Of a stretch of DNA of 43,696 nucleotides, positions 1,538 through 43,696 are shown in pieces. The stretch lies in IMG/VR virus record IMGVR_UViG_3300045988_146126; one strand, 5' to 3'. Positions within the stretch are counted from its first letter, which is position 1. Every line of letters starts with the position of its first letter. Below the pieces are notes generated by a model. The model made no database searches. It saw only the letters and a program-made list of their open reading frames with translations, and was not told the DNA's origin. Origin of the DNA: a virus. The translations under genes were made by a program, and so were the position numbers.

Positions 1538-2071
1538 ATGCGACTGACAGCAAAACAGAAGAAGTTCGTTGATTCTTATATTGCTGATAGCAATGCCACC
1601 AAAGCGGCACTAGAAGCAGGATACAGCAAAAGAACGGCTAGATTTGTCGGTGCAGAAAACCTAACAAAACCTAACATTAAAGCTGCCATCGATGAACGCA
1701 TGAAACGCATCGAGTCTGACAAGATTGCCAAGGCTGCTGAGGTGCTTCAATACTTCACCACAGTGCTTCGTGGAGAGGCAAAAGAGACGATTATAGTTGG
1801 CACTCCAGATGGCGCAGAATCTGTTGAAAACGAGCCAAGCATCAAAGACCGCATGGCAGCAGGACGCGAATTGTTAAAGCGTTACCCTGGTAATGATGAG
1901 CTGCTCAATGCTCAGCTAACGAAGATTATTACTGATATTGAGAAAACTAAGGCCGATGTTCGCAAGTCTAAAGCTGAGGCTGACATCATGGAAGCCAAGG
2001 CCAAGTTGCTTACTGATGCAGGTGCACAAGACAGGACGGTGATTGTCGATGACGTCCCAGAAGATGATTAA
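1538..2071 (+). CDS. terS: Terminase small subunit (P27/Terminase_2-type)
   Basis: SD GGGAGGTG lies upstream. The N-terminus LTAKQKKFVDSYIADSNATKAALEAGYSKRTARFVGAENLTKPNI is the signature HTH of this family. It sits directly upstream of terL. Confidence 0.85.
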   Translation: MRLTAKQKKFVDSYIADSNATKAALEAGYSKRTARFVGAENLTKPNIKAAIDERMKRIESDKIAKAAEVLQYFTTVLRGEAKETIIVGTPDGAESVENEPSIKDRMAAGRELLKRYPGNDELLNAQLTKIITDIEKTKADVRKSKAEADIMEAKAKLLTDAGAQDRTVIVDDVPEDD

Positions 2072-3404
2072 GTTAAGCAAGATGGTGCAACCACATTTCT
2101 ATCCGTTTTGGAATTCAAGGGCACCATATTTGATACTTAACGGCGGTCGTGGCTCATTTAAATCATCGACAGTTAGTCTGAAGCTTGTCATGATGCTGAA
2201 AAGGCAAGCGCAAGAAGGCCATAAAGCTAACATCATTGTCATTCGAGAGAACACGGTTAACTTGCGTGATACTGTATACAGCCAAATCGGTTGGGCAATT
2301 GACATGCTCAAAATGACAGACGAGTTTTTGTTCAACGTATCGCCTATGCGCATAACGCATCGTGGAACTGGTAGCACATTCTACTTCTATGGCGGTGACA
2401 AGCCTGAAAAGCTGAAGTCTAACACCGTTCGTAACGTGATTGCTGTGTGGTATGAAGAAGCAGCCAACTTCAAATCTGCTGAAGTGTTTGACCAAACTAA
2501 TCCAACCTTCATTCGACAGAAATCACCATGGGTTGATCAGGTTCAAGTCTTCTACACGTATAACCCACCAAAGAATCCATATGACTGGATTAATGAGTGG
2601 ATTGATAGTGTTAGAGGAGACAACGATTTCTTCATCGACAAATCAACTTATCTCGATGATGATCTTGGATTCACTGACGAACAGCAGCTTAGACTGATCG
2701 ACAAGTATAAGGCCAATGATTACGACTACTACCGGTGGCTGTATCTTGGTGATGTGATTGGATTAGGAACCAACGTCTACAACATGGATTTGTTTCATAG
2801 GCTGGATGAGGTGCCAAGCAACGATCCAATTAGGCGTCTCGTGTTCTCAATCGACGCTGGTCATATTAATAGCGCAACCACGTGCGTGGCTGCCGCTGTT
2901 ACGGCCAAGAACAACCTGATCGTACTAGACACCTATTACTATTCTCCAGCTAATCAGAGCGTGAAGAAGGCACCAAGTGACCTTGTGCCAGAGATAAAGT
3001 CGTTTATTGATAAGGTAAGGTCAAAATACAATCATCCCGTGCTTAAATACACGATTGATTCTGCTGAAGGTGCGCTGAGAAACGAGTTTGTTAAAGAGTT
3101 CGGCATTCGCTGGCATGGCATTGTCAAGGGCAAGGAAGCTGACATGATTGACTTTGTGTCTAACTTACTTGCTCAAGGACGTGTGTTCTACTTGGACAAT
3201 GACGACAACAAGATATTCATCTCAGAACATCAGCAATACCAGTGGGATGAGAAGACCGCACATTCTGACGATCCACACGTAATTAAAGAGCACGATCACA
3301 CGGTCGATGCTTTCAAATATATGGTAATGGACAACGCCGGACAGTTGAAACTTAGCCAGGCCAACAAGGCACGAGCATTCAAGAACACAAGCAAATACTT
3401 CTAA
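2049..3404 (+). CDS. terL: Terminase large subunit (PBSX/XtmB-like)
   Basis: The ORF is open over 2043-3404. It has the deviant Walker-A-like motif LNGGRGSFKSS near the N-terminus, and its size and position are typical. Candidate ATGs are 2049, 2064 and 2082 with no clear SD, so the start is uncertain. Confidence 0.85.
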   Translation: MTSQKMIKLSKMVQPHFYPFWNSRAPYLILNGGRGSFKSSTVSLKLVMMLKRQAQEGHKANIIVIRENTVNLRDTVYSQIGWAIDMLKMTDEFLFNVSPMRITHRGTGSTFYFYGGDKPEKLKSNTVRNVIAVWYEEAANFKSAEVFDQTNPTFIRQKSPWVDQVQVFYTYNPPKNPYDWINEWIDSVRGDNDFFIDKSTYLDDDLGFTDEQQLRLIDKYKANDYDYYRWLYLGDVIGLGTNVYNMDLFHRLDEVPSNDPIRRLVFSIDAGHINSATTCVAAAVTAKNNLIVLDTYYYSPANQSVKKAPSDLVPEIKSFIDKVRSKYNHPVLKYTIDSAEGALRNEFVKEFGIRWHGIVKGKEADMIDFVSNLLAQGRVFYLDNDDNKIFISEHQQYQWDEKTAHSDDPHVIKEHDHTVDAFKYMVMDNAGQLKLSQANKARAFKNTSKYF

Positions 3405-3408
3405 GGAG

Positions 3409-4836
3409 GTGGCCATCATATTAACAGTTCAAGGTAAAGGATCAATCACAGACGGTGACGTATTTATTTTTCCAGTAGACACAGCTATTACTGGGGACGA
3501 TATCACCAATTTCATTAGTGCAAACGATGAACTAGCTCGCAGAAAATATCTGCCTGCTAAAAAGATGTATCTTGGCAAGCACAAGATTCTTCATGAAGAT
3601 GCCAAAGGCCACGGGCCAGACAATCGTCTTGTCGGAAACTTGGCGCACTATATCGTGGATACCTACAACGGGTTTTACATTGGCATTCCACCTAAGATCA
3701 CGCTCGACAACACACAGGACAACGCTGTGCTACAAGAGTGGAACGACACAAACAGCGTTCAGGACAAATTAAGCGAAATCAGCAAGCAAGCATCCATTTA
3801 CGGACGGGCGCTTGCTTTTTTGTACCAAGACGAGAACAGCAATACGTGTATTGCATACAGTTCACCTATCAATTCATTCATCATCTATGATGACACGGTA
3901 GCACGCAAAGCTATTGCATTTGTCATGTATTGGCATGATGAAGACAACAATTTAACTGGCAAGGTGTATCTGAAAGACGGCATATACGCCCTTGATATGG
4001 TTCGCTTTGAAGGGATAGACGGATTTAACCCGTTTAACGAAGTACCAGCAGTTGAGTTCTTCATGAATACCGAGCGTCAAGGCATCTTTGAGAACGTTGA
4101 GACGCTAATTGATGCACTGGACAAGGTGCTAAGCCAAAAGGCAAACCAGAATGAATACTTTGACAACGCGTACTTGGTTATCAGGGGCATGAGCTTGCCA
4201 GAGGATGATGACGGAAATCCAAAGCTTGATCTTAACGGCAACCAAATCATCTATTCGCCAGATGCTGACTCTACTAACGGTGTGGCCGAGTTTCTGACCA
4301 AGCCTGATGGTGATGCCATTCAAGAGCACCTTATTGACCGCCTCATCAGCATGATCTATCAGATCAGCATGGTGGCCAACTTGAACGATGAAGCATTCAG
4401 CGGCAATAGCTCTGGTGTTGCATTGCAATACAAATTGCTACCAATGCGCAATCTAGCGGCCAATCAAGATCGTAAGTTCACACAGTCACTCCGGTCCCTT
4501 TACAAGATCGCATTCAGTGTTGGGACAATCCTTCCAGAAAGCAAAGCCGATGACTGGCAAAAGCTTAACTTCACATTCTCGCGAAATCTTCCGGAGAACA
4601 TTATCGACGAAGCAGACGCGGCTTCTAAACTCAAAGGCCTTGTATCAGATCAGACTATGCTCAGCACATTATCATTTGTCGATGATCCCAAGGCCGAAAT
4701 GAAACGCATCGCTGATGAGACCGCCCAGAAAGCAAAAAACGCTGCTGCTAACAGTCCGTCAAGCCCTGACTTCCAGAAATTGCTGAATGGTGGTGGCAAT
4801 GATGACAACAACGACTCAACAACAGATAGCGAGTAA
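3409..4836 (+). CDS. Portal protein (SPP1 gp6-type)
   Basis: A 475-aa ORF immediately after terL, with a YLGKHKIL-type N-terminal region and an acidic/Asn-rich C-terminal tail. The only conventional start near the SD is GTG 3409, which overlaps the SD AAGGAGG (3403-3409). Confidence 0.85.
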   Translation: MAIILTVQGKGSITDGDVFIFPVDTAITGDDITNFISANDELARRKYLPAKKMYLGKHKILHEDAKGHGPDNRLVGNLAHYIVDTYNGFYIGIPPKITLDNTQDNAVLQEWNDTNSVQDKLSEISKQASIYGRALAFLYQDENSNTCIAYSSPINSFIIYDDTVARKAIAFVMYWHDEDNNLTGKVYLKDGIYALDMVRFEGIDGFNPFNEVPAVEFFMNTERQGIFENVETLIDALDKVLSQKANQNEYFDNAYLVIRGMSLPEDDDGNPKLDLNGNQIIYSPDADSTNGVAEFLTKPDGDAIQEHLIDRLISMIYQISMVANLNDEAFSGNSSGVALQYKLLPMRNLAANQDRKFTQSLRSLYKIAFSVGTILPESKADDWQKLNFTFSRNLPENIIDEADAASKLKGLVSDQTMLSTLSFVDDPKAEMKRIADETAQKAKNAAANSPSSPDFQKLLNGGGNDDNNDSTTDSE

Positions 4837-23763: not shown

Positions 23764-24010
23764 TACCTTGAGGACTTTTTGAAGCGCCATTTTCACAATA
23801 TTATGGTACAAATGAGGAGGAAGAAACCTGTCCATTCCATTTGAAAAAGCCGACTTTGACTTTGCATCTGTTTATGCGAATGAGCAGTGTGCAAACAAAA
23901 CCACCAAGAAGGTTCCGGCATGGCAAGTTAAAAAAGATATCGATAACTTATCAAAAAACGACTAAATTAAAACAGCGGTTACTTTGCTCGCATCTGTTTA
24001 ATATTAAATA

Positions 24011-24496: not shown

Positions 24497-25681
24497 TCAC
24501 TGATTTAGGTATTTTTCGAATTGCTGATGATTTTCTTTCTTTTTGGCGGGAGAGATCTCTGCATATATTTGTGTAGTTGAAATATCTTTGTGACCGAGGT
24601 CGTCTTTGATGTCATCTAGGCTTAATCCTGCTTCGCGCATCAGAACAGCGTGGGTATGCCGTAAATCGTGAATGCGTATATGAGGAAGTTTAGCTCGTTT
24701 GGTGATGCGATTAAAAGCGCCAGTTGTTGCCCGAGATCGGAGCGGTTGTCCAAACTTGGCATCAGACGAATAGGTGAAGACGAATTCGTTATTGTGGTTA
24801 GTAGCAAATCTAAAACCGGAGATATTGCCTACGTTGAAATGGCGTTCATATTGCAGTTGAAGTAAGCGAGCAACACGCTCGGTCATATACTCGGTTCGAA
24901 CAGAACTGGCAGTCTTAGGTCGATCTAGTGCGATCTTTCCCTTGTTTACGCCAGTCTCGGCACGATAAATTCGTGTAGCGTTGACGGTCAAGGTATTCTT
25001 AGTGAAGTCGATGTCCGACCAACGAAGTGCCATTGCTTCGCCAACACGAAGTCCGCAGTCAATGAGCGTGACGAAGAATGGCAGCCACATTGGTTCTTTG
25101 TCTGATTCAGCCGCATCAATAAACATACTGACTTGGTCTTTTGTCCAAAAGTGCAGTTTCTTTGAGGAATCTTTTGCATAAGCGTTGAATTCCACACCAA
25201 CTGTGGGGTTCTTTTCAAGGTAGCCAATAGCAACGGCTTTTTTTAACGCGTTGTGCAACGTTCCGTTGATGAGTTTTACAGTGTTAAGAGACAAGCCATC
25301 ATTGAATAGGCTGCTGATGAACTCCTGATGTTCCTTAAGAGTGTATTTGGCTAGTCGAATATCCCCAATTTTTGGGATGATGTATTTCTTAAGATTATAT
25401 CGATAGATAATCATGGATCCCTCTTTGACATTAACCTTAAGCTTAGTGATCCACTGATTAAGATAATCAGCCATTAAAATTCTTTCAGTTTGGTAGTGAG
25501 AGTGGCCTTTGATTATTTCGGCCTCGGCTAAAGTTGCTTCTTGCTGGGCTATTTTTTCGGTTGGAAAACCGCGCCGATGAATTTTTATTTCTTTTCCTGT
25601 CTGAGGATCAACACCAGCGAATATATAGAATTCCCATGCCTTTTTGCCATCTTTTAGTTTATATGAGCTAATTGATGCCAT
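24497..25681 (-). CDS. int: Tyrosine site-specific integrase
   Basis: A 394-aa ORF. It has an SAM-like N-terminal domain and the catalytic motifs GLRVGEAMALRW, HDLRHTHAVLM and GHKDISTTQIYAE (R..HxxR..Y). Confidence 0.95.
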   Translation of the reverse strand: MASISSYKLKDGKKAWEFYIFAGVDPQTGKEIKIHRRGFPTEKIAQQEATLAEAEIIKGHSHYQTERILMADYLNQWITKLKVNVKEGSMIIYRYNLKKYIIPKIGDIRLAKYTLKEHQEFISSLFNDGLSLNTVKLINGTLHNALKKAVAIGYLEKNPTVGVEFNAYAKDSSKKLHFWTKDQVSMFIDAAESDKEPMWLPFFVTLIDCGLRVGEAMALRWSDIDFTKNTLTVNATRIYRAETGVNKGKIALDRPKTASSVRTEYMTERVARLLQLQYERHFNVGNISGFRFATNHNNEFVFTYSSDAKFGQPLRSRATTGAFNRITKRAKLPHIRIHDLRHTHAVLMREAGLSLDDIKDDLGHKDISTTQIYAEISPAKKKENHQQFEKYLNQ

Positions 25682-41083: not shown

Positions 41084-41291
41084 AAAAGCGCGCCTAATGA
41101 GGGACGCGCCGGAGGCCAAACGTACGATTGAGAGTGAATGAAATCAAAGATTAGGAGTTGGCCTCCAATGACAGTATAGCAAACGCACATGTTGAACGCA
41201 CGTTTAAGGCATCAAAAAAGCGCACCACGAAGGCACGCTTATCCCCAAAACTTTTACAAATTTAATTATACCATAAGGGGTGGCGCTTGTG

Positions 41292-41720
41292 ATGGAGCTT
41301 TTATCAATTAGCGATGAAAAGGATCGGGAAGCAGTCGAAAATATCCTAAATAAATACCGAGCAGAGCGTGGATTCATAAAGGCGCCAGTCAATCCAAAGA
41401 TCACTAGTGCATGGGGAGACGGAACTTCTGCCAGCACTGTTCAGCGTCCGCTGTATGCACAGCAGCGTTTGGAAAGACAAGAATCGGCACGTAAGTTCTG
41501 TGAATGGTGCGACAGTTGTATTGCATCAATGCCGAAACAATCACATCAGCGTTTATTAAGGGTGCGCTATTGCGATGGGCCAGAAACAGATACGCCAGAC
41601 GGTGATGCAATGAATATTCTCGATATATCTGCAGCAACCTACACACGCAGAAAGAAAAATGCGTTGTTAGCAGCGGCCTGGTACTTTGGCGTCACACCCA
41701 GAAAAAGTAGTGAGCAATAA
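41292..41720 (+). CDS. ArpU-family late transcription regulator
   Basis: SD AAGGGGTGG lies 8 nt before ATG 41292. It is about 142 aa. The N-terminus is EAVENILNKYRAERGF and the C-terminal sigma-r4-like HTH is ISAATYTRRKKNALLAAAWYFGV. It sits at the early/late boundary. Confidence 0.75.
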   Translation: MELLSISDEKDREAVENILNKYRAERGFIKAPVNPKITSAWGDGTSASTVQRPLYAQQRLERQESARKFCEWCDSCIASMPKQSHQRLLRVRYCDGPETDTPDGDAMNILDISAATYTRRKKNALLAAAWYFGVTPRKSSEQ

Positions 41721-41864
41721 ATGATCGATGAATGAGGACTATTTGAGGACTAATTGATTGATAAATGAGTGGCGAACTAAAAACGGAATCCCTTATGATT
41801 GTATTGTGCCAAAGGTGAGAAACCTGAGACACCGCATTTTTCCTCCGAGCCTCAGTGATGATAA

Positions 41865-41961
41865 AGCTGTGGCAAGGCGTGGCAATGAGGACTGGCTGAG
41901 ATAGTCAGGCGGGTTCGATTCCTGCATGCCACATTGTCCAGTTTAGCGACCGGACACAGCT
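41865..41961 (+). ncRNA. Candidate structured RNA containing a D-armless tRNA-like module (not a canonical tRNA)
   Basis: The T-arm is GCGGG-TTCGATT-CCTGC (41909-41925). A 6-bp acceptor-like helix pairs TGCCAC (41927-41932) with either of two tandem GTGGCA copies (41869 or 41879). A 5-bp hairpin spans 41890-41906. The closing helix is AGCTGTG (41865-41871) with CACAGCT (41955-41961). Confidence 0.3.
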
Positions 41962-42027
41962 TGCGATGACCCTAGCTGACAATGGGCGAGCGAGCAGCAG
42001 ACATGAAGCACAGATATCACCTCAATG

Positions 42028-42061
42028 TAGTATTCCAGTTTACGCTGGGGTACTATTTTTG
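42028..42061 (+). terminator. Strong intrinsic terminator 14 nt upstream of ATG 42076
   Basis: An 11-bp stem TAGTATTCCAG / CTGGGGTACTA, loop tttacg, then TTTTT running into the SD GAGGTGA. Confidence 0.8.
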
Positions 42062-42075
42062 TGAGGTGATACGAA

Positions 42076-43008
42076 ATGAAAGACAAAGTTGACAAAGGTT
42101 ATTCGGGTACTTCAAGTTTATCAGTACGTGTTTCCGGCCCTGAAATGCAAGCATCTAAGGGATACGACTTAGACTCCGTCATTGGTGCGTTGCAGGATTC
42201 TCAGGCACTTATAAGAAAGACATACTTGACCAGTCAGGGAAGAGTACGGTTTACATCCAAGGATTATGACAACTTTCAAATTAAACTGAAAGAATGGCGT
42301 GAAGGTTCTCTATGGTCCGATTTAGAGCTTGTTTATTCAAGTGTGATTTTGCCTACAATTCCATTTGTTGTCGACAATCGTGAATTCATTTGGGAATCTA
42401 TTAAAGACTCCTACACTTTCTTGAAAGCAAAATTAACGGCCAAGTCAAAAGGGGAGGCCGTGAAAGTGGAACAAAAGGCAGGCGAACATGGCGTGAATAT
42501 CACAAATAATGGTTCTGGAACAGTGATTGTTGCTGGCCCTGGGCTCCCCGACTTTGCTGAGTCGATTAAACCTTATATACAGCAATTAACAGAAAACATT
42601 CAACCTAACCGGGTGGACACGATTGAGGTGACTAAGGACCCAACAAGCACTGCTCCAGAAGATAAAGTCGTGCTTGACTCGTCAGACAAGAAAATATTTG
42701 GAGAAACAACATTAACTTCTGACGATCGCGTAAGCATCTCAGGAAAGATTACTGCTCTGAATTACGTGACGAACTCAGGCAATATTGAAATTACTAGTTC
42801 TTCTGTTGAGGCTATAAAACCGGGACATGTGTATCACTTGAAGATTAGTACGGATCTACACGCTGAAGATAAGGCCAGAGAAATGTATTTGCGTGACAGA
42901 CCTTATTATTGCAAATATACGGTATCTGCTCAAAACCCTAACCGGGTTATGGAAATCACAATTACTGATTGGGATGACATAGAGTGGGATCAACAAGATA
43001 AGAATTAG
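42076..43008 (+). CDS. Unknown protein (310 aa) between the late regulator and the packaging genes
   Basis: SD GAGGTGA lies 6 nt upstream. It is a clean 310-codon ORF bracketed by terminators. I recognise no motif. Confidence 0.75.
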   Translation: MKDKVDKGYSGTSSLSVRVSGPEMQASKGYDLDSVIGALQDSQALIRKTYLTSQGRVRFTSKDYDNFQIKLKEWREGSLWSDLELVYSSVILPTIPFVVDNREFIWESIKDSYTFLKAKLTAKSKGEAVKVEQKAGEHGVNITNNGSGTVIVAGPGLPDFAESIKPYIQQLTENIQPNRVDTIEVTKDPTSTAPEDKVVLDSSDKKIFGETTLTSDDRVSISGKITALNYVTNSGNIEITSSSVEAIKPGHVYHLKISTDLHAEDKAREMYLRDRPYYCKYTVSAQNPNRVMEITITDWDDIEWDQQDKN

Positions 43009-43041
43009 GAACGGGACGCCACGTCGTCTTTTATTTGCCAG

Positions 43042-43076
43042 AGCACTCTGCCAAACGGTGAGGTGCTATTTTTGTG
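43042..43076 (+). terminator. Intrinsic terminator after the 310-aa ORF
   Basis: AGCACTC ... GAGGTGCT stem followed by ATTTTTG. A weaker GACG/CGTC hairpin plus T-run lies at 43013-43036. Confidence 0.65.
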
Positions 43077-43077
43077 C

Positions 43078-43470
43078 AACAAAAAGGCCCTCTGAGCGAT
43101 TAACTGAGGGCCTAGCTACCGGTGTTTACTGAGGTGAAACAACGGTACCGAAAAAGAGTATAACACATGTAGCAATAAATCGGATTAAAAAAGCCCTCAG
43201 AGACCAGTCCAAGGGCCAAAAGAATGAAAAAACGGAATACTTGTGTGAGCAGCAGCGGTTGACTTGGAGGAGAAAGGCCACTGCTCACATATATATATTA
43301 GCACATTCCTTATAGAAGATACTAAAATAGCCCTCGGTTGGGGGCCGAGAGCCTAAAGAAAGGGTATTACAAAGGAGTGAAAATGAGTATCTGTTGGGAA
43401 CAATTTAATTCTAACTCATCGAAATTTTTTAAGCAACAAAAAAGCTTTCGGGGCCTAATCCGAGGGCTTA
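43078..43470. repeat. Four spaced 'A-run plus GCCCTC-arm' hairpins, reading as minus-strand terminators
   Basis: The hairpins are AAAAAAGGCCCTC..GAGGGCC (43080-43112), AAAAAAGCCCT..AGGGC (43187-43216), AAAATAGCCCTCGG..CCGAGAGC (43324-43352) and AAAAAAGCTTTCGG..CCGAGGGC (43438-43467). Spacing is about 106-136 bp. Confidence 0.5.
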
Positions 43471-43493
43471 AGAACTCGGGAAGTTCTTCATGA
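43383..43493 (+). CDS. Possible 36-aa basic peptide (not in the ORF track)
   Basis: SD AAAGGAG lies 5 nt before ATG 43383. The product is MSICWEQFNSNSSKFFKQQKSFRGLIRGLKNSGSSS. It overlaps one of the hairpins. Confidence 0.3.
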   Translation: MSICWEQFNSNSSKFFKQQKSFRGLIRGLKNSGSSS

Positions 43494-43550
43494 GAATGTG
43501 AGCAGCGTCATCAAACTGCTCACGGACATTATATTTTCGGAGGCGAGTAG

Positions 43551-43696
43551 ATGCAGTGGACAGATGAACAAATCAGTGACATTAGGAAGCTCGCCTCTGA
43601 AGGCTTTACCAGACGAGAGACGGCAGACAAGCTCGGGATTAGCTATGATGCGCTTCAAGGTAAAGCAAAACGGCTTGGCATCGAGTTCCAAAAACC
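43551..43696 (+). CDS. 5' end of the HTH-metallophosphoesterase gene that continues at base 1
   Basis: ATG 43551 is preceded by SD GGAGG (43539-43543, 7-nt spacer). MQWTDEQISDIRKLASEGFTRRETADKLGISYDAL is an HTH-like N-terminus. It is in frame with frame 1 of the window start. Confidence 0.7.
   Translation, partial: MQWTDEQISDIRKLASEGFTRRETADKLGISYDALQGKAKRLGIEFQK
43578..43696. repeat. Terminal direct repeat, copy B (identical to 1-119)
   Basis: Same 119 bases as the window start, consistent with assembly overlap of a circular or circularly permuted template. Confidence 0.95.

What the first reader, a model, noticed from the sequence alone, without database searches (positions are those of the whole stretch)
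41721..42075. Structured 355-nt leader with a D-armless tRNA-like module, ending in a terminator fused to the next gene's SD
The gap between the ArpU-like gene and ORF 42076 is non-coding but highly organised. (a) Tandem 11-mers (A/T)(A/T)TGAGGACTA lie at 41731-41752, with a third ATGAGGACT at 41885-41893. (b) A perfect tRNA T-arm (GCGGG TTCGATT CCTGC, 41909-41925) is contiguous with a 6-bp acceptor-like 3' strand TGCCAC. (c) That strand can pair with either of two tandem GTGGCAA copies (41869, 41879), giving mutually exclusive helices. (d) An anticodon-arm-like hairpin spans 41890-41906, and there is no D-arm. (e) An outer closing helix pairs AGCTGTG with CACAGCT. (f) An 11-bp terminator (42028-42061) has a T-run that runs straight into the SD of ORF 42076. 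This is the layout of a cis-acting attenuator/riboswitch or of a discrete small RNA with tRNA mimicry, comparable in principle to Y-RNA-like tRNA mimics. It is not near int, so it is not the working attP. It could instead be a relic or secondary att site copied from a host tRNA 3' end.
Basis: partly seen in the sequence, partly recalled or inferred. Interest (0 to 1): 0.7.

Follow-up and report, generated by a model that had tools for sequence, protein, structure and literature searches.

The report
Phage late-transcript leader with mini-tRNA mimic
The gap after the phage's late-gene activator holds that activator's binding repeats and promoter, followed by a highly conserved non-coding RNA. 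That RNA contains a stripped-down, non-decoding tRNA look-alike and is the minimal form of a swappable "tRNA-like island" shared by well over 150 Lacticaseibacillus phage sequences.

Summary
The sequence features are real. ARAGORN finds no tRNA. Rfam finds nothing above threshold; the best match is tRNA-Sec at 22.9 bits.

Comparison with 45 phage records and more than 200 viral, genome and metagenome contigs changes the interpretation.
- **The tandem 11-mers** are allele-specific binding repeats for the ArpU/Ltr late activator. They lie upstream of an invariant TATGAT -10 box.
- **The conserved block 41795-41998** starts at that promoter. It has two leader hairpins, a 55-nt tRNA-like unit without a D arm, and a two-hairpin spacer.
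- **This block is the constant head of a variable array** (192-1147 nt) of mostly non-canonical tRNA-like units. In this window the cargo is absent.
- **A 13-bp terminator** nested in a 10-bp helix that sequesters the Shine-Dalgarno sequence (SD) closes the unit.

Across the units only the acceptor stem and T arm are kept, and the anticodon loop varies. I therefore read the unit as a handle for RNase P and RNase Z, not as a decoder. This step is inferred, not shown.

The riboswitch reading has no support either. Parts of the array are shared with the island next to ROOL RNA in the virulent phage Lbab1.

The parts
41280..41720 (+). ArpU/Ltr-type late transcriptional activator gene (context).
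   Evidence: It matches phrog_248 'transcriptional activator' at 6e-24. It matches TIGR01637 phage_arpU at E = 1.2e-6, which is below the curated cutoff. Only 2 phage records carry this allele by tblastn.
41731..41779 (+). Direct repeats phased at 11 bp: GAGGACTA twice, degenerate copies, and GCGAACTA at 41772. Putative ArpU binding boxes.
   Evidence: In 87 upstream contexts each Ltr allele type has its own 11-bp-phased repeat in this position. Repeats immediately distal to ltr genes are the Ltr recognition sites (PMC3753634).
41794..41799 (+). -10-like hexamer TATGAT with no sigma-70-type -35. The inferred late transcription start is near 41805.
   Evidence: TAT(G/T)AT(G/T)GTATTGTGCC is invariant downstream of all box types. 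No sigma-70-type + strand promoter is found here. The conserved block begins here.
41806..41832 (+). Leader hairpin H1 (GUG-C-AGGU / ACCU-G-CAC, loop GAGAA).
   Evidence: RNAalifold predicts it and 98-100% of cells are paired. The variant GGGA-GYGA-UCCU swaps U:A to A:U.
41849..41873 (+). Leader hairpin H2 (GCCUCAGU / GCUGUGGC, loop GAUGAUAAA). It contains the first GTGGCA copy.
   Evidence: It is 100% paired across 95 variants, with 82 one-sided changed cells and 1 two-sided. In L170 a different hairpin, GCCAU-UGCG-AUGGU, replaces it.
41879..41933 (+). tRNA-like unit without a D arm, 55 nt. Acceptor 41879-84 / 41927-32 with an A.A mismatch at 41885/41926. Anticodon-like hairpin 41892-96 / 41904-08 with loop 41897-41903. 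T arm 41909-13 / 41921-25 with loop TTCGATT. Discriminator A41933. No CCA is encoded.
   Evidence: ARAGORN finds no tRNA. The best Rfam match is tRNA-Sec at 22.9 bits against a threshold of 47. The three-helix fold is the minimum-free-energy fold in the A2-type variant. Loop positions 1, 3 and 4 vary and there is no U33. An unrelated tRNA-like unit without a D arm occupies the same slot in about 11 loci.
41934..41996 (+). Spacer 'module B', made of two hairpins (41935-39 / 41952-56 and 41959-64 / 41990-95).
   Evidence: The fold has z = -2.74 and 99% of cells are paired. It is shared with the virulent phage Lbab1 at L006:2501-2563. A tRNA-like 3' end precedes it in 40 of 40 metagenome contigs.
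41997..42014 (+). Linker. GCGAGCAGCAGACA (41990-42003) matches the 5' end of the next tRNA-like unit in longer arrays, so this may be the stub of deleted cargo.
   Evidence: This comes from comparison with iLp84 and A2 and the unit catalogue. It is an inference.
42015..42071 (+). Intrinsic terminator (stem 42027-42056, T run 42057-61) nested in the 10-bp helix 42015-24 / 42062-71. That helix sequesters the SD GAGGTGAT (42064-71) of ORF 42076.
   Evidence: See (-31.4 kcal/mol, z = -6.5). The cassette is present in 44-48% of contexts. Other phages carry a second terminator cassette type in the same place.
42076..43008 (+). First downstream ORF (310 aa, function unknown). It is a variable 'moron'-like cargo gene.
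   Evidence: It matches phrog_33593 at 1.8e-43 and has no Pfam or NCBIfam match. It is alignable in 0-8% of contexts. It is followed by GcrA-like, HNH, TerS and TerL genes.

Best explanation
The 355-nt gap is the control region and non-coding head of the late transcription unit of a temperate Lacticaseibacillus phage.

**DNA level.** The 11-bp-phased repeats just after the activator gene are that ArpU allele's binding boxes. They sit about 20-60 bp upstream of a TATGAT -10 element that has no -35. Transcription therefore probably starts near 41805.

**RNA level.** The transcript begins with a nearly invariant two-hairpin leader. A 55-nt tRNA-like unit follows. It keeps only the acceptor stem and the T arm, has no D arm, has a freely varying anticodon loop and encodes no CCA. 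A 63-nt two-hairpin spacer comes next. These three elements form the constant head of an exchangeable array of tRNAs and, mostly, non-canonical tRNA-like units. In this phage the array carries no further cargo.

**Proposed mechanism (inferred).** The tRNA-like unit does not decode. It acts as a handle for the host's tRNA end-processing enzymes. RNase P would cut at about 41878/79 and RNase Z at about 41933/34, and CCA would then be added. This is how mitochondrial t-elements, mascRNA and herpesviral TMERs work. The cuts would release the leader, a mini-tRNA and the downstream RNA with defined ends.

**End of the unit.** A strong terminator closes the unit. Its enclosing helix hides the ribosome-binding site of the next gene. 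Most transcripts should therefore end as a non-coding RNA of about 250 nt, and only read-through transcripts would reach the late genes.

**What is shown and what is inferred.** The anatomy, the conservation, the box/allele correspondence and the non-decoder status are shown. The transcription start, the RNase P/Z cleavage and the read-through are inferred.
For: **Promoter.**
- Ltr/ArpU activators bind direct repeats immediately distal to their own gene and drive the whole late operon from one promoter (PMC3753634).
- In 87 distinct upstream contexts, eight or more box types precede the same TAT(G/T)AT(G/T)GTATTGTGCC. The box types include GAGGACTA, TGCAACA, GCGAAC, TGAGACCTTT, TGCGGAC, TTGGGAA, GCCCC and AGTAGACAAAG, and all are phased at 11 bp.
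- No sigma-70-type -35 is present.

**Conservation.**
- Block 41795-41998 is alignable in 95-100% of 79 contexts. The arpU coding sequence is alignable in 22% and the downstream ORF in 0-8%.
- The block is 90-99% identical in 44 phage records.

**RNA on the + strand.**
- 97% of cells are paired. Many pairs are G.U, which is valid only on the + strand.
- H2 and the anticodon-like stem stay 100% paired through 83 and 46 changed cells respectively.
- In L170 a different hairpin replaces H2.
- The whole leader folds with z = -2.76.

**Not a decoder.**
- ARAGORN finds no tRNA. The best Rfam match is 22.9 bits against a threshold of 47.
- Loop positions 1, 3 and 4 vary and there is no U33.

**Selection on the acceptor stem and T arm only.**
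- In 54 distinct T-arm contexts from 108 arrays, 65% have 7/7 acceptor pairing, against 14% in shifted controls.
- The units are 46-132 nt long and many lack the D arm, the anticodon arm or both.
- Only 15 of 108 arrays have a tRNA that ARAGORN calls, and 8 of those have odd anticodon loops.
- The first slot is always filled by one of two unrelated tRNA-like units without a D arm.
- Module B always abuts a tRNA-like 3' end, written ...CA|TTGTCC.

**Array head.** iLp84 and A2 have real tRNAs between the same head and the same terminator. The head-to-terminator distance is 192-1147 nt.

**Terminator.** A terminator cassette precedes the first ORF in other phages too.
Against: - No transcript data of any kind are available. 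The transcription start, the cleavage sites and the terminator efficiency are all inferred.
- Covariation in the 95-variant alignment is statistically weak. The score is 0.048 against 0.046 for shuffles (10/500), and only 2 pairs show two-sided changes. The sequences are 88-98% identical.
- The second T-stem pair is a C.A mismatch in 11 of 95 variants. Two or three variants break the 6-bp acceptor (L019, L068).
- The 7:66 position is an A.A mismatch.
- In this window the tRNA-like fold (-20.5 kcal/mol) is not the minimum-free-energy fold (-23.3).
- The leader's loops are almost invariant. That is more constraint than a spacer ahead of an RNase P site would need, so there may be another function.
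- A strong terminator between the single Ltr-dependent promoter and the late genes is awkward unless something promotes read-through.
Confidence: 0.5

Rival explanations
1. The leader is a cis-acting read-through device, working like the put RNA of phage HK022 or the lambda PR'-6S-tR' arrangement. The invariant two-hairpin leader, possibly together with the tRNA-like unit, would modify RNA polymerase or otherwise control passage through the terminator at 42027-42061. Late genes would then be expressed only when read-through is licensed.
For: - The first ~73 transcribed nt form two hairpins that are nearly invariant even in their loops.
- A terminator of one of two cassette types stands between the array and the first late ORF wherever its end was inspected.
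- Ltr phages are reported to use a single late promoter (PMC3753634).
- The exact 8-mer of the ArpU boxes occurs outside this gap only once, at 23769, and not in tandem. This argues against a second ArpU promoter downstream.
Against: - No alternative anti-terminator pairing is conserved.
- The leader-to-terminator distance varies from 192 to 1147 nt. This rules out a simple attenuator but not a processive mechanism.
- No Rfam family matches, including known antitermination RNAs.
- This model gives the tRNA-like unit no role.
Confidence: 0.15
2. The products act in trans. One option is that the mini-tRNA, or the whole family of armless tRNA-like units, is a decoy or sponge for a host factor that recognises the acceptor/T-arm helix. 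Candidates are CCA-adding enzyme, RNase P, EF-Tu, or a defence toxin that targets tRNA acceptor ends. The other option is that module B plus the terminator hairpin is a small regulatory RNA of about 128 nt whose 5' end is made by RNase Z.
For: - The units keep their shape but not a decoding function.
- Two unrelated sequences fill the same first slot with the same armless architecture and the same A.A mismatch at 7:66.
- Module B is the most widely shared piece. It is also found in the virulent phage Lbab1 next to ROOL RNA.
- Module B is always flanked 5' by a tRNA-like unit.
- The unit ends in a terminator, as a stand-alone small RNA would.
Against: - No target or partner has been identified.
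- The T-arm plus acceptor sequence copies no tRNA in one genome for each of 185,579 species, so it does not mimic a specific host tRNA.
- The C.A mismatches tolerated in the T stem suggest relaxed constraint.
- This function would not exclude processing. It would add to it.
Confidence: 0.15
3. The tRNA-like unit is a decaying tRNA pseudogene with no function of its own. The block would be conserved because it contains the late promoter and its initial transcribed region, and because conserved non-coding 'linkers' are where these mosaic phages recombine.
For: - The conserved non-coding islands sit exactly at the borders of variable cassettes.
- Assembly contigs break at the ends of the block.
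- Chimeric units recombined inside the T loop exist (L094, L161).
- Statistical covariation is weak, and C.A mismatches are tolerated.
- All hosts belong to one genus.
Against: - Stems keep pairing through G.U intermediates, while loops and connectors take the substitutions.
- In a divergent species a different hairpin replaces H2.
- A second, unrelated armless tRNA-like unit occupies the same slot.
- Acceptor pairing is strongly enriched across 54 unit types.
- The same modules persist in a virulent myophage that has no ArpU context.
Confidence: 0.15
4. The unit is a relic or secondary att site copied from the 3' end of a host tRNA gene.
For: The T-loop box GGTTCGATTCC is canonical for bacterial tRNAs, and phage att cores often lie in tRNA 3' ends (general knowledge).
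Against: - The 21-nt T-arm plus acceptor 3' strand, GGTTCGATTCCYRCATGCCAC, matches only six loci among one genome for each of 185,579 species. All six are prophage copies with the same leader, and none is a tRNA gene.
- The integrase gene is 16 kb away.
- The 5' acceptor strand and a hairpin are present, not just a 3' fragment.
- The slot holds real tRNAs in relatives.
Confidence: 0.02

Closest known systems
Ltr/ArpU-dependent late promoters of Gram-positive phages (Quiles-Puchalt et al. 2013, PMC3753634).
   Same: The activator gene lies just upstream. Short direct repeats immediately distal to its stop codon are specific to the activator allele. A late promoter follows, and packaging genes lie downstream.
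   Different: In the characterised phages the transcription start is 28-118 bp from terS. Here the promoter is followed by 270-1300 nt of structured non-coding RNA with tRNA-like units and then a terminator before any ORF.
Phage 'tRNA islands', including those next to ROOL and GOLLD RNAs.
   Same: This is a phage-borne cluster of tRNA-type genes and structured RNA. About 920 nt of the island just downstream of ROOL in phage Lbab1 is shared with these arrays, at 84-94% identity for the best-matching array. ROOL and GOLLD are described as lying 'often near tRNA islands' (PMC12286853; PMC5737381).
   Different: No ROOL or GOLLD is found in the window or in 15 temperate-phage arrays. Most units are not tRNAs at all: only 15 of 108 arrays have an ARAGORN-callable tRNA. 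This window has no cargo.
tRNA-like processing signals: plant mitochondrial t-elements (PMC1920247), MALAT1 mascRNA, and murine gammaherpesvirus 68 TMERs. The last two are cited from memory.
   Same: The acceptor stem and T arm are retained. The unit does not decode. It is embedded in a longer transcript and followed by another structured RNA. No CCA is encoded.
   Different: This is a bacterial phage context with an Ltr-type promoter. Cleavage by RNase P and RNase Z has not been tested. A comparable arrangement in phage late leaders is not described in the papers I could search.
Mitochondrial tRNAs without a D arm (nematodes, and mammalian mt-tRNA-Ser(AGY)). Cited from memory.
   Same: The layout is a 7-layer acceptor, a short connector in place of the D arm, a 5-bp stem with a 7-nt loop, and a T arm.
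   Different: Those are true decoders with fixed anticodons. Here the loop varies (TGAGATA, CGTGATA, TGCGATA, CGATATA and others), U33 is missing and there is no variable loop.
Lambda PR'-6S RNA-tR' with Q, and the HK022 put RNAs. Cited from memory.
   Same: A late promoter gives a short structured leader that runs into a terminator placed before the late genes.
   Different: No Q-like protein or put-like motif has been identified. The regulator here is an activator family, and read-through is untested.
Bacterial Y RNAs (YrlA) with a tRNA-like domain.
   Same: A non-coding RNA that carries a mimic of the acceptor and T arm.
   Different: Rfam finds no match. No Rsr/Ro60 gene is called among the Pfam-annotated neighbouring genes. 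There is no Ro-binding helix.

Membership tests
Canonical tRNA gene | A cloverleaf with a D arm that tRNA finders detect (ARAGORN, or Rfam RF00005 at 29 bits or more). | tested here: not met
   ARAGORN finds 0 genes in the window. Rfam finds nothing at its gathering thresholds. The best clan hit is tRNA-Sec at 22.9 bits against a threshold of 47. No D stem can be drawn in 41885-41891.
Canonical tRNA gene | A 7-nt anticodon loop with U33, a purine at 37, and an anticodon kept fixed by selection. | tested here: not met
   The loop is TGAGATA with G at position 33. Positions 1, 3 and 4 vary among 95 variants.
Canonical tRNA gene | A T arm with the GTTCRANYC loop, stacked on a 7-bp acceptor stem. 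| tested here: met
   The T arm is GCGGG-TTCGATT-CCTGC, and the acceptor has 6 bp plus an A.A mismatch.
tRNA-like processing element (t-element / mascRNA / TMER type) | The acceptor stem and T arm are retained while the decoding parts degenerate, and the unit is embedded in a longer transcript. | tested here: met
   Full 7/7 acceptor pairing is seen in 65% of T-arm contexts against 14% of controls, and the units are 46-132 nt long.
tRNA-like processing element (t-element / mascRNA / TMER type) | Cleavage by RNase P at the 5' side and RNase Z at the 3' side, followed by CCA addition. | not testable with these tools
   This needs RACE, Northern blots or in-vitro cleavage. Only the absence of an encoded CCA and the motif 'A + TT' after the acceptor are visible in the sequence.
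Ltr/ArpU late promoter region | [quoted passage not shown] | tested here: met
   The repeats lie at 41731-41779. Eight or more allele-specific box types all precede the same -10 element. The definition comes from PMC3753634.
Ltr/ArpU late promoter region | The activator binds the repeats and activates transcription. | not testable with these tools
   This needs EMSA or reporter assays.
Intrinsic (Rho-independent) terminator | A G+C-containing hairpin followed directly by a U run. | tested here: met
   The stem has 13 pairs (42027-42056) followed by TTTTT. The fold is -31.4 kcal/mol with z = -6.5.
Riboswitch / transcription attenuator | A known aptamer, or conserved and mutually exclusive terminator and anti-terminator helices at a fixed distance. 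| tested here: not met
   Rfam finds no family. The proposed alternative helices fail. The leader-to-terminator distance is 192-1147 nt.
att-site relic of a host tRNA | Exact identity of the T-arm and acceptor 3' segment to a host tRNA gene. | tested here: not met
   Six matches were found among one genome for each of 185,579 species. All six are prophage copies with the leader.
ROOL / GOLLD RNA | A match to Rfam RF03087 (ROOL) or to the GOLLD model at the gathering score. | tested here: not met
   There is no match in the window or in 15 temperate arrays. ROOL is found only in Lbab1, at 201 bits.

The most novel reading that the evidence does not exclude
Lacticaseibacillus phages may express, from their late promoter, a previously unrecognised family of armless mini-tRNA-like RNAs (46-66 nt) and tRNA-shaped scaffolds that carry inserted RNA domains. 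These would work in trans. They might act as decoys for host enzymes or defence toxins that recognise tRNA acceptor ends. Alternatively they might be cargo or partners of ROOL-type RNA assemblies, next to which the same modules lie in phage Lbab1. The invariant two-hairpin leader would be a put-like element that lets polymerase pass the terminator.
Probability: 0.15. Interest if true: 0.85.

Novelty: new variant of a known kind. Interest (0 to 1): 0.6.

Why it matters
- **ROOL and GOLLD.** Phage tRNA islands are usually read as codon-usage helpers. The function of the ROOL and GOLLD RNAs found next to them is a long-standing open question. Here the island is reduced to its constant head: one tRNA look-alike that cannot decode, plus a spacer. 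This head sits at a defined place, the first RNA made from the ArpU-dependent late promoter, in well over 150 phage and prophage sequences. Its modules are shared with the ROOL-adjacent island of a virulent phage.
- **A small system to test.** It can test whether such units are processing handles, decoys or regulators. It can also test how a late operon copes with a terminator placed right after its only known promoter.
- **Practical use.** The result also explains the allele-specific repeats as activator boxes, which helps in annotating and engineering phages of dairy and probiotic strains.

Tried and rejected
- **Whole gap as a known RNA family.** Rfam at gathering thresholds found nothing in the window. 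In E-value mode only chance-level hits appeared besides tRNA-Sec at 22.9 bits.
- **ROOL or GOLLD hidden in relatives' longer arrays.** None was found in iLp84, A2 or R10.1, or in 15 long arrays. ROOL is present only in Lbab1.
- **First GTGGCA copy as the acceptor 5' strand** (7 bp, as in the Rfam tRNA-Sec alignment). Rejected: that strand belongs to H2.
- **Shifted acceptor register GGCGTG/CATGCC**, which RNAalifold chose. It is compatible with the variants. I did not prefer it because it leaves a 4-bp T stem, and because the unrelated unit #1' has the 6 bp + A.A geometry of the GTGGCA/TGCCAC register.
- **Outer closing helix AAGCTGTG/CACAGCTT.** Rejected.
- **A 'type 2 leader'.** It turned out to be a second-tier module behind the same leader.
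- **Statistical covariation.** It was too weak to prove structure, at 10/500 shuffles.
- **Transcript ends from assembly contigs.** Contig ends coincide with the borders between conserved and variable sequence, not with RNA ends.
- **Literature.** Searches for a described tRNA-like element in Lactobacillus phages found nothing specific.
- **More distant ArpU relatives.** A tblastn search for ArpU relatives in other genera found only 2 records. I could not test whether late leaders with tRNA-like units exist outside Lacticaseibacillus.
Full report
**1. What is in the window**

The window is a temperate Lacticaseibacillus siphophage genome.
- TerS is at 1538-2071, TerL at 2043-3404 and the integrase at 24497-25681 on the minus strand.
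- The finding lies between an ArpU-type activator gene (41280-41720) and a 310-aa ORF of unknown function (42076-43008). The activator matches phrog_248 at 6e-24 and TIGR01637 at E = 1.2e-6, below cutoff.
- GcrA-like, HNH and terminase genes follow the ORF.
- ARAGORN finds no tRNA in the window. Rfam finds nothing at gathering thresholds. The best sub-threshold hit is tRNA-Sec at 22.9 bits (threshold 47) over 41868-41933.

**2. The element is not private to this phage**

- blastn finds window 41791-41996 at 90-100% identity in 44 casei-group phage records. These include A2, iLp84, PLE3, J-1, PL-1, Lc-Nu, Lrm1 and BH1.
- Exact-pattern scans add well over 150 IMG/VR contigs, 6 genome contigs and 40 metagenome contigs.
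- Among 79 distinct contexts, block 41795-41998 is alignable in 95-100%. The arpU coding sequence is alignable in 22%, the downstream ORF in 0-8% and the terminator cassette in 44-48%.
- The block is therefore a sharply bounded conserved island between swappable cassettes.

**3. The 11-mers are activator boxes**

[quoted passage not shown] They also showed that these repeats confer specificity and that the whole late cluster is driven from this one promoter. An L. casei BL23 prophage protein is listed among the ArpU homologues (PMC3753634).
- In 87 distinct upstream contexts, every activator allele type has its own 11-bp-phased repeat. Examples are GAGGACTA here, TGCAACA, GCGAAC, TGAGACCTTT, TGCGGAC, TTGGGAA, GCCCC and AGTAGACAAAG.
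- All repeat sets end about 20-30 bp before the same invariant TAT(G/T)AT(G/T)GTATTGTGCC.
- No sigma-70-type -35 is present.
- This window's ArpU allele occurs in only two phage records, yet it feeds into the same downstream block.
- Part (a) of the finding is therefore a known kind of DNA site. The conserved RNA starts at the inferred late transcription start, near 41805.
- The third ATGAGGACT copy lies inside the tRNA-like unit. Half of the relatives have AA-ATGGACT there, so I treat the match as possibly chance.

**4. Anatomy of the RNA**

RNAalifold on 95 distinct variants and explicit pair counts support six elements.
- Hairpin H1, 41806-41832.
- Hairpin H2, 41849-41873.
- A 6-bp acceptor, 41879-84 with 41927-32.
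- A stem-loop of 5 bp with a 7-nt loop, 41892-41908.
- The T arm, 41909-41925.
- Two hairpins in a 63-nt spacer, module B, 41934-41996.

Evidence on the structure:
- 97% of cells are paired.
- H2 stays 100% paired through 83 changed cells. The TCAG, ATGG, ACAG and ACGG versions all pair with the same 3' strand.
- The anticodon-like stem moves between G.U, A:U and G:C.
- The many G.U pairs are valid only on the + strand.
- The formal covariation signal is weak: 0.048 against 0.046 for shuffles, 10/500, with only 2 pairs changed on both sides. The sequences are too similar for more.
- Divergent copies give stronger evidence. In an L. songhuajiangensis prophage, H2 is replaced by a different hairpin (GCCAU-UGCG-AUGGU) and the first GTGGCA copy is gone. 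An H1 variant swaps U:A to A:U under a GNRA loop.
- The leader as a whole folds with z = -2.76.

**5.

- The first GTGGCA copy belongs to H2.
- About 11 loci carry a completely different first unit: ATCCCGA-TGTGGAA-GCCG/CGTG/CGGC-T-GTTGG/TTCGATT/CCAGC-ACGGGAT-A, 52 nt, also without a D arm. These loci still keep GCTGTGGCAAGG, which cannot pair with that acceptor. There is therefore no switch.
- The 'outer closing helix' competes with H2 and is broken in 13 cells.

**6. It is the head of a tRNA-like island**

- In iLp84 and A2 the same head is followed by real tRNAs and further tRNA-like units, and then by the same terminator. The tRNAs are tRNA-Ile at 71.8 bits and a 45-bit tRNA.
- The head-to-terminator distance ranges from 192 to 1147 nt. 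This window belongs to the common 'empty' class.
- Of 108 distinct arrays, only 15 contain a tRNA that ARAGORN calls, and 8 of those have abnormal anticodon loops.
- Across 54 distinct T-arm contexts, the 7 nt after the T stem pair perfectly with an upstream 7-mer in 65% of cases. Shifted controls reach 14%.
- The units are 46-132 nt long. Many lack the D arm, the anticodon arm or both. Some are tRNA shells with large inserts.
- Every unit keeps the acceptor stem, the T arm and a discriminator, and none encodes CCA.
- In the first unit the 'anticodon' loop is the most variable stretch and lacks U33.
- This pattern points to selection for recognition by tRNA end-processing enzymes (RNase P, RNase Z and CCA-adding enzyme), not by synthetases or ribosomes. 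That those enzymes need only the acceptor/T minihelix is established knowledge. Actual cleavage here is inferred.
- Module B directly follows a tRNA-like 3' end (...CA|TTGTCC) in 40 of 40 metagenome contigs.

**7. The att-relic idea fails**

The 21-nt T-arm plus acceptor 3' strand matches six loci among one genome for each of 185,579 species. All six are prophage copies with the leader. The integrase gene is 16 kb away.

**8. The end of the unit**

- The terminator stem is 42027-42056 with 13 pairs and a T run.
- It is nested in a perfect 10-bp helix, 42015-24 with 42062-71, which buries the SD GAGGTGAT. The fold is -31.4 kcal/mol with z = -6.5.
- Phages without this ORF carry a second terminator cassette type between the array and the GcrA-like gene.
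- A terminator after the array therefore looks like a general feature. This raises an unanswered question about read-through into the late genes.

**9. Link to ROOL**

- The virulent Herelleviridae phage Lbab1 has a non-coding island of about 2 kb. It contains a ROOL RNA at 201 bits.
- About 920 nt just downstream of that ROOL is shared with the temperate arrays, at 84-94% identity for the best-matching array.
- ROOL and GOLLD are known to lie near phage 'tRNA islands', and their function is unknown.
- No ROOL or GOLLD occurs in the window or in the temperate arrays.

**10. Verdict**

The riboswitch, switch-helix and att-relic readings do not.
- The best reading is a late-promoter control region plus the constant, cargo-free head of a tRNA-like island. 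Its armless tRNA mimic most likely serves as a processing handle for RNase P and RNase Z.
- Rival functions (antitermination, a trans-acting decoy or small RNA, or a mere recombination linker) cannot be excluded without transcript data.
- I found no description of this arrangement in the searchable literature.

Noticed in passing
L006 (phage Lbab1, MT758689.1) 1647-2219 and 2242-3409: A ROOL RNA (Rfam RF03087, 201 bits) lies in a non-coding island of about 2 kb in a virulent Herelleviridae phage of L. casei. About 920 nt just downstream of ROOL is shared with the temperate-phage arrays, at 84-94% identity for the best-matching array.
   Followed up: partly
L170, L172, L173 and other arrays: Some units are tRNA-shaped shells: acceptor ATCGCTG/CAGCGAT, a class-II-like D arm GGCGGAATAGGTAGACGC, and T arm GTCGGGTGCAAATCCCGAC. 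They carry about 40-190 nt of extra structured RNA where the anticodon and variable arms should be, like natural 'tRNA scaffolds'.
   Followed up: no
L094 and L161 (alignment A1): These are chimeric units. The 5' half of tRNA-like unit #1 is joined inside the T loop to the 3' half (CCCACCGGCCTCA) of a different unit. This suggests that modules are shuffled by recombination at the invariant T-loop box.
   Followed up: no
Seven arrays, and L006:3161-3233: A unit of tRNA size (GTGAGAG...CTCTCAC) is called 'tRNA-???(tc)' by ARAGORN. It has a 6-nt anticodon loop and scores 35.5 bits against Rfam tRNA in Lbab1.
   Followed up: no
window 41200-41275: A second sharply conserved non-coding island lies just upstream of the arpU-like gene and is alignable in 97% of contexts. 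It includes a hairpin at 41218-41240 that looks like a minus-strand terminator. It is probably the conserved control region of the activator gene.
   Followed up: no
window 43009-43551: A 540-nt non-coding gap separates ORF310 from the GcrA-like gene. It holds several GC hairpins preceded by A runs, which look like minus-strand terminators (43192-43217, 43329-43353). It also holds a cassette, GGTGAGGTGCTATTTTTGTG (~43059-43078). In phages that lack ORF310, that cassette directly follows the tRNA-like array.
   Followed up: partly
window 41885/41926, and the equivalent position in unit #1' (L010, L029 and others): Both alternative first-slot tRNA-like units have an A.A mismatch at acceptor position 7:66, although their sequences are unrelated. 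Later units in the arrays have seven perfect pairs.
   Followed up: no
window 41654-41667 and 41829-41842: A 14-nt inverted repeat (93% complementary) links the 3' coding end of arpU to the leader segment between H1 and H2. That segment also contains an anti-SD-like UUUUUCCUCC.
   Followed up: no
window 41280-41720: This ArpU allele is rare. tblastn finds it in only 2 of 50,697 phage records, while the RNA block it feeds into is in 44. The activator and its boxes behave as one swappable cassette.
   Followed up: partly
L202, L204, L207: Independent metagenome and SRA assembly contigs end at the borders of the conserved block, either near the arpU stop or at the end of module B. This is consistent with assembly-graph branching where constant sequence meets variable cassettes.
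   Followed up: no
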